Made by a program: the position numbers and the translations under genes | The notes under the pieces: model-generated | The model's database searches: none | What the model was told of the DNA's origin: nothing | The model's input: the letters and a program-made list of their open reading frames with translations, nothing else | Shown here: in pieces, positions 27,872 to 34,932 of the stretch | Position numbering within the stretch: position 1 is the first letter of the stretch | Layout: every line of letters starts with the position of its first letter | Virus record (IMG/VR): IMGVR_UViG_3300026442_000101 | DNA from: a virus | Taxonomy: Duplodnaviria; Caudoviricetes | Length of the DNA: 64,000 nucleotides | Direction: 5' to 3' (one strand)

Positions 27872-28714
27872 TTACACGAGTTCGACGATATCGAGATGAT
27901 CGATGCGGTTACGCTTGAAGCTTGCCGCGTTAGTGTGACCGCCGCCGCCGTGTTGTTCGGCAATGGTGGCGACGTTAACGTCAGAGCTCTTGAGCGAACG
28001 CAGACGGTAGTAACGGAACTTGGCGTCTTCGTACCAAGTGATCGAGAACGGCGAGTTGTACTTCTTGATCAACTCTTCACCGACGCGGCTGCCGTTGTAG
28101 CGCGGCACGTTCGACATCGGAATGTTCTCATAGCCAGCGAAGCTGACCAGGAAGCTTTCTTCCAGATGTCGGCCGATCTGCTGATCTTCCATCGCCACCA
28201 GCGGCTGCCCTACATCAATCAGATGTTCGGTATACGCATGAGCGTAAGTCACCGAATCGATTTCGATAGGCAAGGTGGCAAAGCCTGCGATGAAAGCTCG
28301 GGTATCAGGCAGCTTGTAGTTCCACAGGTCGTGGTCTTCCACAAGGTCGACAATCGTCGGCCGCGGCTGATTGGGGAAGATGATGTCCCACGCCAGACCT
28401 GCACCAGACCGGGTCATGTCAAGACGCAGGTCGAGGTTGTTCGGATAGCCCGCCTTCTCGAAGTATTCGTCGATACGTTCGATGGCCGTCTCGTGATGAT
28501 CGAGCACAGTGACCATCTTCGCCTTATCGCACATCTCAGCGAGGACGTTCGGCGGATAGGAGAAGTCGAGGATGATGACCGTACGGTCGGTAACGTCGGG
28601 TGGGTTATCACCATAAGCTGCGGCGATGTAGTCGGCATCATCACCGTACTTGTTGCGAGCTGCCCATGCGGCAACGACGCCGTCGAAACAGTCAGCGTGG
28701 TAGATTACAAGCAT
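27872..28714 (-). CDS. DHH/DHHA1 phosphoesterase
   Basis: HADCFDG, ILDFS, LDHH, GGGGHTNAASF. Confidence 0.9.
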   Translation of the reverse strand: MLVIYHADCFDGVVAAWAARNKYGDDADYIAAAYGDNPPDVTDRTVIILDFSYPPNVLAEMCDKAKMVTVLDHHETAIERIDEYFEKAGYPNNLDLRLDMTRSGAGLAWDIIFPNQPRPTIVDLVEDHDLWNYKLPDTRAFIAGFATLPIEIDSVTYAHAYTEHLIDVGQPLVAMEDQQIGRHLEESFLVSFAGYENIPMSNVPRYNGSRVGEELIKKYNSPFSITWYEDAKFRYYRLRSLKSSDVNVATIAEQHGGGGHTNAASFKRNRIDHLDIVELV

Positions 28715-30405: not shown

Positions 30406-30933
30406 TCAGTTGACCCGAAGGATCACTTGATCACGACCACCGCGTTGAGCCAGCCATTCGTAGAACTGCGTATACTTCATATTGCAGAAGAAGTAACTGG
30501 CATCGTCGACGATGATGAGCTTTGCTGGGGGAATAGGATCGGGCAGACCTTTCTTCCGATGCAGGATCGAGCGCTTTACTTCGTATGGCGTACACACACG
30601 AACGCTTTCTAATTCTGCACGGGGATACCCGATGAAATCAGGGTTCTCGTTCGCACAGTTCTGGATCAGCATCTTCTTGATCCTGAGGTTCGGTACGATG
30701 TAGAGCGCCTCACCTACCAGGTTGAAGATCTGAGCCAAAGCTCTGGTACGGCCGGTCTGACGTGGGACGAAGAACCCCACAGTCTTCCAGTCACGCAACC
30801 AGATGTCGTCTGGAGGAGCTGCCCTTCTGTACTGTTCCTCGAACCACTCCTGTTCGGCGTGGAATGGCGCCAGCAGGCTCTGTACCATCTCCTTCGGATT
30901 GAAGGGAGGTTGTGAGACCGTTTTCTTACTCAT
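30406..30933 (-). CDS. small P-loop NTPase-like protein
   Basis: PRQTGRT Walker A-like and IIVDDA Walker B-like. Confidence 0.6.
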   Translation of the reverse strand: MSKKTVSQPPFNPKEMVQSLLAPFHAEQEWFEEQYRRAAPPDDIWLRDWKTVGFFVPRQTGRTRALAQIFNLVGEALYIVPNLRIKKMLIQNCANENPDFIGYPRAELESVRVCTPYEVKRSILHRKKGLPDPIPPAKLIIVDDASYFFCNMKYTQFYEWLAQRGGRDQVILRVN

Positions 30934-31349
30934 CTTGTAATCTCGCCTTTATATTCAAACGGTAAGTTCGCCTTCTCAGCGATCTTCCGTAAAACGTTTA
31001 TGCTTAAGTGTCGGTGACAGAACTTACCGGGACTACAATAGCACGCAATGGCCACCTCACTGTCTCGTCCCAATTCGAGCAGATCGTAGAAAGACCGACG
31101 CCAACTACCGTACCGATCGCGTAATAGCGCTAGGTATTGTTCGGTATACATCTCGTCGGTTATGAGCTCGCCCTTGTGGTTCATGACCATCGTCCAAGTG
31201 GGTGCGAGAAACTCGTACTCCACAGCTGACTTTACCGTGGTATCGGCCAGGATGATTCCCCTATCCTGCACCAGTCTCCACTGGCTAATCTGCGCTGTCC
31301 AAAAGGCCATGCTAAGCTCCGGTATTCTCTGACATACATTTGCCAGCAT
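30930..31349 (-). CDS. DUF488-like protein
   Basis: ACYCSPGKFCHRHL motif. Confidence 0.6.
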   Translation of the reverse strand: MLANVCQRIPELSMAFWTAQISQWRLVQDRGIILADTTVKSAVEYEFLAPTWTMVMNHKGELITDEMYTEQYLALLRDRYGSWRRSFYDLLELGRDSEVAIACYCSPGKFCHRHLSINVLRKIAEKANLPFEYKGEITR

Positions 31350-32252: not shown

Positions 32253-32978
32253 TTACGCGCAGCGGTAGTTCGGGTTCTCGAGAACAACCTCGAGGTCGAA
32301 GAACAGCTCGGTCTTGATGCTGGACGGCACGGTGATGGAAAGCAAGGCGCGCTCAGGATCTACCTTCAGGTAGATGTCTTCAGCACCAGGGATGCTGAGG
32401 GTGTAGTTCTGAGTACGCTGACCTTCGATCTGCTTGATAGCAGAGAGGTCATGGGACAGCTTGATACCATCGGCCGTGCGGACGTTGTTGAAGCGGATAG
32501 CGCCGACGCTGTCGGTCAGATCCAACACGCTGGGATCGCCGAAGCCGAACACGTTGAACTTACCATCGACCAACGGCAGGTTCTTGGCTTCGAGGCGACG
32601 CTCGGTAGCGCGGCCAATGCGACGACGCAGGACAGTGGAGTACTTGTCCATGAACGCGCCTTGCTGCATCATCATGTCTACATCGAGATCGGAAAGACCT
32701 TCAGGCTTGGCGCCCTGACCCACGTTGTAGAGGAACGAGCACAGACCTTTGTGACGCGCGGTCAGTTGCGCTTGCTCGATAATCATGCGCTGGACATGCG
32801 CCGGGCGGCTGTCGATGTGACCGAGCGGCAAGTGATCTTTCAGGAACTGCTCTTCCGATTGCCAGGTTACGTTGCCGGCTTCGTCTTTGACGTTGTAGCC
32901 AGGCTTACCATCTTCGCCGGATTGAGACGACCAGGCGAGGACAGTAACGTTCTTGTTCACCAGATAGTTCTGAGTCAT
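32253..32978 (-). CDS. multidomain hypothetical protein with crAss001_48-like helical hairpin
   Basis: QRMIIEQAQLTARHKGLCSFL...QQGAFMDKYSTVLRRRI pattern. Confidence 0.7.
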   Translation of the reverse strand: MTQNYLVNKNVTVLAWSSQSGEDGKPGYNVKDEAGNVTWQSEEQFLKDHLPLGHIDSRPAHVQRMIIEQAQLTARHKGLCSFLYNVGQGAKPEGLSDLDVDMMMQQGAFMDKYSTVLRRRIGRATERRLEAKNLPLVDGKFNVFGFGDPSVLDLTDSVGAIRFNNVRTADGIKLSHDLSAIKQIEGQRTQNYTLSIPGAEDIYLKVDPERALLSITVPSSIKTELFFDLEVVLENPNYRCA

Positions 32979-33006: not shown

Positions 33007-33095
33007 TAGGGCGTTCCTCGTGGATTTGAACCACGGACCTTCGGCGTGTCTTTTAGCTAAGGGGCCGACGCTCTAACCAGCTGAGCTAAGGAACG
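33007..33095 (-). ncRNA. tRNA-scaffold RNA NC3 (89 nt) with 18-nt anticodon loop
   Basis: All four tRNA stems perfect; loop CCCTTAGCTAAAAGACAC; ends C-CCTA. Confidence 0.75.
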
Positions 33096-33099
33096 AGAA

Positions 33100-33213
33100 T
33101 AGGGGCTTCCTCGAAGAATCGAACTTCGGACTTCCGCCAGGTATGGTGAGCCTGCCCCATTTAAGGGGCCAGGAGGCTCGAAGACGGCACTCTACCAACT
33201 GAGTTAAGGAAGC
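33100..33213 (-). ncRNA. tRNA-scaffold RNA NC4 (114 nt) with 44-nt hairpin insert replacing the anticodon loop
   Basis: GCTTCCT/AGGAAGC, CCGTC/GGCGG, CGAAG-TTCGATT-CTTCG; ends C-CCTA. Confidence 0.75.
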
Positions 33214-33821: not shown

Positions 33822-33823
33822 AG

Positions 33824-34122
33824 AATAAGCGCCTGGGGAGGACATTCCCCAGGTCTTGCCACTAATTACCCTAGTGGCCAAGGTGCCTTCATATCGCTTC
33901 AGGCAGGTTTGCGCGGTACTAGCTAGTGTCTGACCATGCTAGAACAGTGCTCGGCATGTGCGGCGCTGGCGCTTCCCTGATAACTCAAAGCCAACAGACT
34001 GGCTCCTCGTCGTCGTAGGGTCTAATGTAACTACAAAGCCTTACGTGCAGCTATAGCGCCTCGGGTAGGGAGGGCACGGGGCTAGGATCTTAGGCTTGGC
34101 ATAGGAGTACCGAGCTTCTGAT
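33824..34122 (-). ncRNA. candidate ~300-nt structured ncRNA
   Basis: No credible ORF; hairpins GCCACTAG/TTAGTGGC, CCTGGGG/CCCCAGG; flanked by tRNA-Gln and NC6. Confidence 0.4.
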
Positions 34123-34123
34123 T

Positions 34124-34201
34124 TGGCAGGGGTAATTGGATTCGAACCAATGATCGCGGCGTCAAAGGCCGCTGCTTTAGGCCAGGCTAAGCTATACCCC
34201 G
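34124..34201 (-). tRNA. trnQ: tRNA-Gln(UUG)
   Basis: GCGGC-CTTTGAC-GCCGC anticodon arm, TTCGAAT T loop, encoded CCA. Confidence 0.9.
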
Positions 34202-34209
34202 ATTGAAAA

Positions 34210-34285
34210 TGGCTCCACGACCTGGACTCGAACCAGGGACAGGCGAATTAACAGTCCGCTACTCTACCGACTGAGTTATCGTGGA
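34210..34285 (-). tRNA. trnN: tRNA-Asn(GUU)
   Basis: GCGGA-CTGTTAA-TTCGC, acceptor TCCACGA/TCGTGGA, CCA. Confidence 0.92.
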
Positions 34286-34361
34286 ACAAAGGGTGACCCT
34301 CCAGCCGATCTACGGCTAGTTAAGCGCGCTGCGTAATACGCTGCCTGGCAAGGGTCGTAAA

Positions 34362-34445
34362 TGGTGGATGGGGAAGGATTCGAACCTTCGAAAAATTAAT
34401 GGCGGCTTTACAGGCCGCTCCCTTTGACCTCTCGTGAACTCATCC
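34362..34445 (-). tRNA. trnY: tRNA-Tyr(GUA)
   Basis: GCGGC-CTGTAAA-GCCGC, long variable arm, CCA. Confidence 0.9.
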
Positions 34446-34454
34446 AGATGCAAG

Positions 34455-34530
34455 TGGTAGTACCGAGTGGGATGGAACCACCGACCTTATCCTTATCAGG
34501 GGTGCGCTCTACCAGCTGAGCTACGGCACT
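34455..34530 (-). tRNA. trnI: tRNA-Ile(GAU), possibly degenerate
   Basis: CTGATAA loop, CCA; anticodon stem CACCC/GGATA has 2 mismatches and T loop is TTCCATC. Confidence 0.7.
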
Positions 34531-34899: not shown

Positions 34900-34932
34900 A
34901 AAAAAAAAGAACGCGGGGTGGTTAGCCCCGCG
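34900..34932 (-). terminator. rho-independent terminator
   Basis: CGCGGGG...CCCCGCG plus A9. Confidence 0.7.

What the first reader, a model, noticed from the sequence alone, without database searches (positions are those of the whole stretch)
33100..33213. tRNA chassis presenting a 44-nt hairpin at the anticodon position
Intact acceptor, D and T arms. The anticodon stem CCGTC/GGCGG encloses GAGCCT..GCCCC-TTAAAT-GGGGC..AGGCTC plus a single-stranded ACCATACCT. This is the layout of engineered tRNA-scaffold expression constructs, here apparently natural. Inference: the insert could be a functional cargo (protein-binding hairpin or antisense seed) or an intron-like segment removed by a phage-encoded repair or splicing activity.
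Basis: partly seen in the sequence, partly recalled or inferred. Interest (0 to 1): 0.7.

Follow-up and report, generated by a model that had tools for sequence, protein, structure and literature searches.

The report
Hairpin-carrying valine-type phage tRNA mimic
A giant soil phage encodes a conserved 110-base RNA with a complete tRNA body whose anticodon loop is split open by a hairpin, so it almost certainly cannot read codons and probably acts as a tRNA look-alike; unannotated copies also sit in cultured Ralstonia and Burkholderia phages, where this can be tested.

Summary
On the minus strand, 33213-33104 folds as a full tRNA body. Its 5-bp anticodon stem encloses 44 nt: a UUC linker, a bulged 11-bp hairpin with a UUAAAU loop, and single-stranded ACCAUACCU.

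Default tRNA finders miss the element. Rfam tRNA scores it 48 bits once filters are relaxed.

Four related uncultured phages keep it. Five base pairs changed on both sides yet stayed paired, one of them in the hairpin. Three copies are 99% identical although the neighbouring gene is only 73-75% identical.

I also found unannotated counterparts in cultured Ralstonia phages RP12, RP31, FLC1-1B and FLC4-3B and in Burkholderia phage FLC9. Across these, the hairpin sequence and loop are not conserved. The hairpin's presence is, and so is the 3' linker, which begins N-CCA and has A,C two bases before the stem (the valine identity positions 35-36).

Position 37 is always a pyrimidine, U33 is often missing, and the splice motif of archaeal tRNA introns (bulge-helix-bulge) is absent. 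An intron-bearing decoding tRNA is therefore unlikely.

Best reading: a non-decoding, valine-type tRNA mimic. It is the most widely kept member of a family this scan has already flagged in this genome and in other phages. The partner, possibly valyl-tRNA synthetase (ValRS), is inferred.

The parts
33207..33213 (-). Acceptor stem, 5' strand (GCUUCCU), RNA positions 1-7
   Evidence: Pairs with 33105-33111. Pairs 1:72 and 6:67 change on both sides in relatives.
33189..33204 (-). D arm: ACUC, loop AGUUGGUA (A14, G18, G19), GAGU
   Evidence: Rfam tRNA alignment. A-U changes to G-C in relatives.
33183..33187 (-). Anticodon stem, 5' strand (CCGUC)
   Evidence: Pairs with 33134-33138. G-C changes to A-U in relatives. 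Four of the five pairs covary across 9 phages.
33180..33182 (-). 5' linker UUC (CCC in relatives; 3-7 nt and not conserved in cultured phages)
33148..33179 (-). Insert hairpin: GAGCCU / bulge CCUG / GCCCC / loop UUAAAU / GGGGC / AGGCUC
   Evidence: Minimum-energy folds. In the outer helix, G-C changes to A-U on both sides and U-A changes to C-G or U.G (sequences). A hairpin of 8-12 bp is present in all 9 homologs.
33159..33164 (-). Terminal hexaloop UUAAAU
   Evidence: Invariant in 4 of 5 close relatives and UUAAGU in L031. Replaced by GUAA, GAAA or other hexaloops in cultured phages.
33139..33147 (-). 3' linker ACCAUACCU: N-CCA directly after the hairpin, a variable base (position 34), A35 C36, then C37 U38
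   Evidence: The same 8-mer ACCAUACC is in Ralstonia phage RP12. A,C lie at -4,-3 in every non-canonical element examined.
33134..33138 (-). Anticodon stem, 3' strand (GGCGG)
33112..33133 (-). Variable region AAGUC and T arm CGAAG-UUCGAUU-CUUCG (G53, U54, U55, C56, A58, C61)
   Evidence: The T arm is invariant in the five close homologs.
33104..33111 (-). Acceptor stem, 3' strand (AGGAAGC) and discriminator C73
33097..33103 (-). 3' trailer CCUAUUC (CC-U where a tRNA gene would encode CCA)
   Evidence: Every non-canonical element of this clade ends N73-CC-Y-A. Every canonical tRNA beside them encodes CCA.

Best explanation
The element is the gene for a stable, non-decoding tRNA-shaped RNA: a valine-type tRNA mimic of a phiKZ-like jumbo phage.

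How it would work:
- The intact acceptor, D and T arms give it the tRNA L-shape. Host tRNA enzymes would therefore cut it out of the array transcript and tRNA-binding proteins would recognise it.
- A bulged 8-12 bp hairpin is inserted on the 5' side of the anticodon loop. The loop cannot close into a U-turn, so the RNA cannot pair with a codon on the ribosome.
- The 3' part of the old loop is kept single-stranded at the normal distance from the elbow. It displays N-CCA and A35-C36, the main bases read by valyl-tRNA synthetase (ValRS).
- I therefore think it works by docking onto a protein that reads valine-type tRNA, most likely host ValRS. It could act as a ligand or regulator, or as a valine acceptor that never enters translation.

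Shown: the structure, its conservation, the conserved linker motif, and the absence of decoder features.

Inferred: transcription, processing, stability and the identity of the partner. My odds that the partner is ValRS are about 0.3.
For: Structure and detection: tRNA body at 48 bits with the elbow nucleotides intact; cloverleaf with extended arm as the minimum-energy fold.

Conservation in close relatives:
- In the five close homologs 99.3% of pair cells are paired. Five pairs change on both sides, against none in six slid controls.
- L001, L003 and L033 RNAs are 99% identical while the adjacent gene DNA is 73-75% identical. Their only difference is the position-34 base.

Wider distribution:
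- The same architecture occurs in cultured phages RP12, RP31, FLC1-1B, FLC4-3B and FLC9.
- The tRNA-body helices covary strongly over 9 sequences, with 14 pairs changed on both sides.
- Every insert folds into a hairpin.
- It is the only match to my model in the whole RP12 genome, so it is kept even where the nested relatives are absent.

Valine signature:
- A,C at -4,-3 in all six element types in all phages inspected.
- Discriminators are only A or C.
- Valine identity is A35, C36 and A73. Plant-virus TLS-Val keep A35-C-A-C38, have A73 or C73, and tolerate large inserted stem-loops (PMC9976931).

Not a decoder: position 37 is a pyrimidine in all nine, and U33 is unavailable in the L001 clade and RP12.

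Precedent for phages acting on ValRS: T4 vs modifies ValRS, with an unknown role (PMC13716836).
Against:
- The close-relative sample is small: five sequences in about three lineages.
- Orthology with the cultured-phage copies rests on architecture and the shared linker, not on synteny.
- Valine identity is only partly met. The window clade has C73, not A73. G20 is absent. The FLC copies have irregular acceptor helices, and E. coli ValRS needs a regular one.
- The window clade encodes CC-U rather than CCA, so charging would need trimming and a CCA-adding enzyme.
- A,C could be partly inherited from one tRNA-Val ancestor.
- No partner gene was found beside it.
Confidence: 0.6

Rival explanations
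1. Cargo-centred scaffold. The tRNA body is only a processing and stability chassis, and the working part is the hairpin with its N-CCA tail. The hairpin could be a protein-binding handle. Alternatively it could be an embedded minihelix-plus-NCCA that resembles the minimal RNase P substrate; RNase P would then nick the RNA 5' of the hairpin and release or expose a small helix-ACCA.
For: - A hairpin of 8-12 bp followed directly by N-CCA is present in all nine homologs, although its sequence changes.
- In copies with 8-9 nt linkers, N-CCA is kept in addition to the A,C pair, so N-CCA looks selected in its own right.
- The layout matches engineered tRNA scaffolds (general knowledge; not tested here).
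Against: - Loop sequence, bulge position and bulge size are not conserved across the cultured phages. That argues against a sequence-specific protein site.
- The closing pair and loop do not match a T arm.
- In the 7-nt linkers, N-CCA overlaps the anticodon-like CAC, so it may be nothing more than positions 32-35.
- There are no data on any internal cleavage.
Confidence: 0.15
2. Intron-bearing tRNA-Val gene. The insert is cut out and the halves are joined by an unknown host or phage activity, giving a decoding tRNA-Val(NAC). This would resemble the 'enigmatic introns' reported in Lak megaphage tRNAs.
For: - The retained 3' part always reads N-A-C, a valine anticodon, and only the wobble base varies.
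- The arrays hold no canonical tRNA-Val.
- The Lak megaphage preprint, which says it knows of no earlier report of introns in phage tRNAs, describes short conserved insertions, one of them predicted to encode a tRNA (10.1101/356790).
- ARAGORN can model the element as a tRNA plus intron.
Against: - Position 37 would be C or U in all nine copies.
- U33 is unavailable in the L001 clade (CCC linker) and in RP12.
- The folds show no bulge-helix-bulge motif, and at 37-44 nt the insert is far too short for a group I intron.
- ARAGORN's isotype and splice site change from copy to copy: Ser(CGA) in the window, Leu(UAA) in L001, Met(CAU) in FLC4-3B.
- No intron-less allele was found.
- No endonuclease or ligase family turned up among 77 window ORFs.
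- The sister elements carry whole permuted tRNA bodies, which are hard to see as introns.
Confidence: 0.12
3. Decayed tRNA-Val gene kept only as a processing signal. The top half still directs RNase P and 3' cleavage, which punctuates the polycistronic transcript around the small ORFs and the PF21825 gene. The anticodon region has been free to accept junk insertions.
For: - In the window the elements flank ORFs tightly. The element starts 7 nt after the stop of the 91-aa ORF, and the PF21825 gene is bracketed by two tRNA-like elements.
- RNase P and the 3' processing enzymes need only the acceptor/T domain (general knowledge).
Against: - The insert and linker are under clear constraint. Both sides of a hairpin base pair changed together, three insert sequences are identical in phages whose neighbouring gene is about 27% diverged, and the linker motif is conserved as far as RP12.
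- The D arm and anticodon stem, which punctuation does not need, also covary.
- In FLC4-3B, FLC1-1B and RP12 the element is followed by about 300 nt of non-coding DNA rather than by an ORF.
Confidence: 0.1

Closest known systems
Valine-accepting tRNA-like structures (TLS-Val) of tymoviruses such as TYMV
   Same: Both are viral, non-decoding tRNA mimics that keep A35 and C36 in a single-stranded anticodon-like strand. Both have discriminator A or C and tolerate large inserted stem-loops (PMC9976931).
   Different: TLS-Val sits at the 3' end of an RNA genome, has a pseudoknotted acceptor arm and keeps a closed 7-nt loop with ACAC. This element is a free-standing gene in a DNA phage tRNA array, has a normal acceptor stem and has an opened loop. 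Valylation was not tested.
'Enigmatic' tRNA introns of Lak megaphages (Devoto et al., bioRxiv 10.1101/356790)
   Same: Both are short, highly conserved insertions in the anticodon region of huge-phage tRNA genes. Default tRNA finders miss them or call them pseudo-tRNAs, and one Lak insert is itself tRNA-like.
   Different: The Lak authors read their inserts as introns and had alleles with and without the insert. Here no insert-free allele exists and the remaining loop lacks decoder features. I did not compare sequences because their Table S6 is not held.
YrlA-type Y RNAs of bacteria and phages (Rfam RF02553)
   Same: Both are tRNA mimics used as non-coding RNAs. The nested sister elements in this array resemble the YrlA tRNA-like module.
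   Different: This element has no permuted T-arm / closed acceptor hairpin / D-arm order. The 25-bit YrlA hit at 33066-33136 spans the junction of two adjacent elements and is far below the gathering score of 69. No Ro/TROVE gene was found in the window.
Engineered tRNA scaffolds for recombinant RNA (Ponchon and Dardel; from my own knowledge)
   Same: The cargo helix replaces the anticodon loop on an intact anticodon stem, and the tRNA body provides processing and stability.
   Different: That is a laboratory design, not a natural family. Here the most conserved feature is the linker (N-CCA ... A,C), not the cargo.
   Same: Both are small stable RNAs of unknown function encoded inside phage tRNA clusters.
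   Different: I made no sequence or structure comparison, so relatedness is unknown.

Membership tests
Canonical decoding tRNA (Rfam RF00005) | Cloverleaf with acceptor, D, anticodon and T stems and the elbow nucleotides | tested here: met
   48 bits against a gathering score of 29. All four stems covary.
Canonical decoding tRNA (Rfam RF00005) | Closed 7-nt anticodon loop with U33 and a purine at 37 | tested here: not met
   44 nt lie between the stem strands. Position 37 is C or U in all nine homologs. U33 is absent in the L001 clade and in RP12.
Canonical decoding tRNA (Rfam RF00005) | 3' CCA, either encoded or added | tested here: inconclusive
   The window clade encodes N73-CC-U. The FLC copies encode A73-CCA and RP12 encodes A73-UCA. 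The mature end is unknown.
tRNA with archaeal/eukaryal-type intron | Bulge-helix-bulge (3-4-3) motif at the splice sites, usually at position 37/38 | tested here: not met
   The folds show a 3-nt and a 9-nt strand directly opposite each other, then a 6-bp helix. There is no 4-bp helix between two offset 3-nt bulges. The insert lies 5' of the anticodon remnant.
tRNA with archaeal/eukaryal-type intron | A splicing endonuclease and a ligase available | not testable with these tools
   None among 77 ORFs of the window, but the rest of the phage genome and the host were not available.
Group I intron in a bacterial or phage tRNA gene | Insert of about 200 nt or more with the P1-P9 catalytic core | tested here: not met
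   The insert is 37-46 nt and forms a single hairpin. No Rfam intron family was hit.
YrlA / Y RNA (RF02553) | Permuted tRNA-like module (T arm, closed acceptor hairpin, D arm) on a Ro-binding stem | tested here: not met
   The only hit is a 25-bit match across the junction with the neighbouring element.
Valine-type tRNA mimic (TLS-Val-like function) | A35 and C36 displayed in the anticodon-equivalent strand | tested here: met
   A,C at -4,-3 from the 3' stem strand in all nine T-type copies and in all sister elements inspected.
Valine-type tRNA mimic (TLS-Val-like function) | Other E. coli ValRS determinants: A73, G20, G45 and a regular acceptor helix | tested here: inconclusive
   The window clade has C73; the cultured phages have A73. 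Position 20 is U or C. G45 is present except in the window. The FLC acceptor helices carry two mismatches or a bulge. The determinant list is from PMC9976931.
Valine-type tRNA mimic (TLS-Val-like function) | Binding or charging by ValRS | not testable with these tools
   This needs biochemistry.
Lak-type 'enigmatic' phage tRNA intron | Alleles with and without the insert that define excision points | tested here: not met
   No insert-free homolog in 50,697 phage records, in IMG/VR or in the metagenome scan.

The most novel reading that the evidence does not exclude
The hairpin type is the core member of a widespread, undescribed family of phage valine-type tRNA mimics that act on host valyl-tRNA synthetase, as ligands, regulators or non-translational valine acceptors. 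That would give an RNA counterpart to the T4 Vs-ValRS modification, whose purpose is still described as unknown. It would also be directly testable in cultured Ralstonia phages RP12 and FLC4-3B.
Probability: 0.25. Interest if true: 0.85.

Novelty: new variant of a known kind. Interest (0 to 1): 0.62.

Why it matters
If these RNAs are working tRNA mimics, jumbo phages carry a class of small RNAs that standard annotation does not see. All five cultured-phage copies are unannotated in GenBank, because default tRNA finders reject the long anticodon-loop insertion.

The valine signature ties them to two older observations. Plant viruses use valine-accepting tRNA-like ends. Phage T4 modifies host ValRS for a reason still described as unknown in 2026 (PMC13716836).

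Because the hairpin type exists in phages that can be grown on Ralstonia, several things are now within reach: northern blots, charging assays, pull-downs and deletion mutants.

The element is also a natural example of the tRNA-scaffold principle used to express recombinant RNAs.

Tried and rejected
**Expression**
Stability, ends and splicing are untested.
- No whole genome is held for the window.

**More relatives**
- The single metagenome scan returned only the contig already known as L001.
- Two IMG/VR pattern scans (loop plus linker; linker plus stem) gave 20 and 8 extra loci. None matched the covariance model, so they were chance matches.
- L032, whose PF21825 protein is 51% identical, keeps the sister types but lacks this one.

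**Antisense seed**
- The hairpin core CCCTTAARTGGG occurs only once in the window.
- CACCANACCTGG has three further 1-mismatch sites (4 observed against 0.86 expected). None is exact, and the one at 28402 lies in a plus-strand ORF. The variable middle base of the motif argues against a fixed seed, so I did not pursue this.

**Alternative pairings and matches**
- In L001 the GGUGG strand could pair with CACCA instead of the 5' stem strand. I rejected this because the window's C41 covaries with G29 and not with the invariant CACCA.
- The inner loop as a real tRNA-Leu(UAA) anticodon loop (ARAGORN's call in L001): rejected. The loop is 6 nt in the window and in L031, and it is replaced by tetraloops in the FLC phages.
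- The YrlA matches come from adjacent tRNA-like genes lying side by side.

**Partner gene**
- No cupin, Ro/TROVE, RNA ligase or endonuclease was found in the window or beside the cultured copies. The cupin link noted by other agents elsewhere therefore does not show here.
- A check of one flanking gene against RP12 found no similarity.

**Tool failure**
- The first genome search failed. The repeat worked.

Full report
**What is there.** The window carries a tRNA array on the minus strand between about 34530 and 33010. Default ARAGORN and Rfam find four ordinary tRNAs, Ile(GAU), Tyr(GUA), Asn(GUU) and Gln(UUG), plus one odd tRNA at 33009-33095. Neither reports the stretch in question.

With relaxed filters, Rfam's tRNA model matches 33104-33213 on the minus strand at 48 bits (gathering score 29, E 9.8e-9), with a 41-nt insertion in the anticodon loop. 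ARAGORN with introns allowed also finds it.

Read 5' to 3' on the minus strand, the RNA is:
- acceptor GCUUCCU
- U8 A9
- D arm ACUC-AGUUGGUA-GAGU
- G26
- anticodon stem CCGUC
- linker UUC
- hairpin GAGCCU / bulge CCUG / GCCCC / loop UUAAAU / GGGGC / AGGCUC
- linker ACCAUACCU
- anticodon stem GGCGG
- variable region AAGUC
- T arm CGAAG-UUCGAUU-CUUCG
- acceptor AGGAAGC
- discriminator C
- trailer CCUAUUC

The minimum-energy fold of the 110 nt gives exactly this structure (-42.8 kcal/mol, z -2.6). The 44-nt insert alone folds at z -5.2.

**Context.** Earlier notes of this scan identify the genome as an uncultured soil phiKZ-like jumbo phage. My Pfam census of 77 ORFs agrees: phiKZ internal head protein, Peptidase_S80, thymidylate synthase, thymidylate kinase, DHFR, a dCTP deaminase-like protein and QueC.

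The element sits 7 nt after a 91-aa ORF. It is followed by a second odd tRNA with an 18-nt loop and then by a PF21825 gene (crAss001_48, called 'Sequestin' in the precomputed Pfam labels).

Upstream lie two elements in which the anticodon loop of one tRNA body holds a permuted second tRNA body. I saw these independently, and other agents have already followed them up.

All these non-canonical elements end N73-CC-Y-A, mostly CCUAUU. All canonical tRNAs beside them encode CCA.

**Conservation in close relatives.** I used the PF21825 protein as an anchor and a covariance model built from the element. These found the element in four other uncultured phage contigs: L001 (same as L002), L003, L033 and L031, at 116-136 bits.
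- 99.3% of pair cells are standard pairs.
- Five pairs change on both sides: two in the acceptor stem, one in the D stem, one in the anticodon stem and one in the hairpin. Six slid controls show none.
- A sixth hairpin pair goes U-A, C-G, U.G (sequences).
- L001, L003 and L033 RNAs are 99% identical although the neighbouring gene is 73-75% identical at DNA level between L001 and either of the other two (L003 and L033 are themselves near-identical). Purifying selection therefore covers the insert as well as the tRNA body.
- The single base that differs among those three is the one between ACCA and ACCU: G, U or absent.

**Cultured relatives.** The model also hit unannotated 106-116 nt elements next to the tRNA genes of Ralstonia phage FLC4-3B and Burkholderia phage FLC9. 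BLAST from those hits added Ralstonia phages FLC1-1B, RP12 and RP31. None is annotated in its record.

Over the nine distinct sequences the tRNA-body helices covary strongly: 14 of 25 predicted pairs changed on both sides, and four of the five anticodon-stem pairs did.

Each insert has the same plan:
- a non-conserved 5' linker of 3-7 nt
- a bulged hairpin of 8-12 bp
- a 3' linker of 6-9 nt

The hairpin's sequence, bulges and terminal loop are not conserved. The loops are UUAAAU, UUAAGU, GUAA, GAAA and two other hexaloops.

The 3' linker is conserved. It always starts N-CCA directly after the helix, and it always has A,C at the fourth and third positions before the stem. RP12 has ACCAUACCA, sharing the window's 8-mer.

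In RP12 the element is the only match to the model in the whole genome. The hairpin type is therefore kept even where the nested types are missing.

**What the linker means.** Counted back from the 3' strand of the anticodon stem, the A,C fall at positions 35 and 36, with the variable base at 34. The same holds for every sister element I inspected, in all phages.

A35, C36 and A73 are the principal determinants of valine identity. Plant-virus TLS-Val conserve A35-C-A-C38, carry A73 or C73, and can be valylated despite large inserted stem-loops (PMC9976931). Here the discriminators are only A or C.

I then tested the rule across all elements myself.

Identity is only partly met:
- the window clade has C73
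- G20 is absent
- the FLC copies have irregular acceptor helices
- the window clade encodes CC-U rather than CCA

**Why it is not an intron-bearing tRNA.**
- Whatever is removed, position 37 would be a pyrimidine in all nine copies. U33 is unavailable in the L001 clade (linker CCC) and in RP12.
- The two unpaired strands lie directly opposite each other, so there is no bulge-helix-bulge motif. The insert is far too short for a group I intron.
- ARAGORN's isotype and splice site change from copy to copy: Ser(CGA), Leu(UAA), Met(CAU).
- No insert-free allele was found.
- No endonuclease, ligase or Ro/TROVE family is present in the window.

The Lak megaphage 'enigmatic introns' are the nearest published observation and may be a related phenomenon. 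I could not compare sequences.

**Most likely mechanism.** I read the element as a non-decoding tRNA mimic.
- The tRNA body secures processing from the array transcript, stability and recognition by tRNA-binding proteins.
- The hairpin holds the loop open.
- The N-CCA...A,C strand is the displayed ligand, most plausibly for ValRS.

The structure and its conservation are shown. Expression, processing and the partner are inferred.

Phages are known to act on ValRS: T4 vs encodes a ValRS modifier whose role is still described as unknown, and it matters in minimal medium (PMC13716836).

The rivals are a cargo-centred scaffold (including an embedded helix-NCCA substrate for RNase P), a spliced tRNA-Val, and a decayed tRNA kept as a processing signal. 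The constraint on insert and linker argues against the last. The lack of decoder features argues against the second.

**Limits.**
- The close-relative set is small.
- Orthology with the cultured copies rests on architecture and the linker motif, not on synteny.
- The cupin gene that other agents found next to similar mimics elsewhere is not detectable here.

**Verdict.** The feature is real and conserved. It is a new variant within the loosely known kind of phage tRNA-like RNAs. It belongs to a family this scan has already flagged in this genome and in at least four other phage genomes.

This report adds three things: the element's wider distribution, the cultured hosts in which it can be tested, and the finding that the linker, not the hairpin, is the conserved sequence.

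Noticed in passing
window 33822-34124 (minus strand): A ~290-nt block without an ORF lies between tRNA-Gln and the first nested element. It is 85-86% identical in L001, L031 and L033 and folds at -101 kcal/mol. It ends in a GC-rich hairpin (33853-33832) followed by GCUUAUUCU, which resembles the CCUAUUC trailer. It is probably another structured RNA of the array.
   Followed up: partly
L042 4447-4762 (FLC4-3B), L044 2611-2926 (FLC1-1B), L045 2603-2913 (RP12): In the cultured Ralstonia phages the hairpin-type element is followed by about 300 nt of unannotated non-coding DNA starting GUAUUGUUGUAG. This DNA is 99% identical between the two FLC phages and about 81% identical in two segments of RP12. 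It has no sequence similarity to the window's 290-nt block.
   Followed up: partly
window 34124-34530; L001 2492-3278; L042 and L043 arrays: The canonical tRNAs of these phages are dominated by the four queuosine-type tRNAs (Tyr, Asn, Asp, His, all GUN anticodons) plus Gln. The window also encodes a QueC-like protein. This may point to queuosine metabolism or to defence against a nuclease that cuts Q-tRNAs.
   Followed up: no
window 34455-34530 (minus strand): The window's tRNA-Ile(GAU) has two mismatched pairs in its anticodon stem (CACCC/GGAUA), whereas the L001 ortholog is perfectly paired (CACCC/GGGUG). The window copy may be impaired.
   Followed up: no
window 32253-32978 (minus strand): The PF21825 gene (crAss001_48 family, labelled 'Sequestin' in the precomputed Pfam labels) is bracketed on both sides by tRNA-like elements. 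Only six homologs were found among 5.8 billion proteins. A DUF488-N3a gene lies at 30930-31349. The array may lie in an accessory or counter-defence region.
   Followed up: partly
window 33010-33095 and orthologs (L001 3882-3967, L032 1093-1182): The neighbouring element's 18-nt 'loop' forms a small hairpin. Its stem covaries (CUU/AAG, CGU/ACG, CUUUU/AAAAG) around the loop AGCU(A/U)A. It is followed by AC-NN, so the plan is the same as in the hairpin type, only smaller.
   Followed up: partly
L043 4396-4529 (Burkholderia phage FLC9): A second unannotated 134-nt tRNA-like element with a larger insert containing a T-arm-like GGUUCAAAUCC and a linker ending AAACAA. FLC9 therefore carries at least two family members.
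   Followed up: no
window 34912-34932 (minus strand): A strong terminator-like hairpin (7 G-C pairs followed by UUCUUUUUUU) lies just upstream of the 102-aa ORF that precedes the tRNA array. It may mark the start of the array's transcription unit.
   Followed up: no
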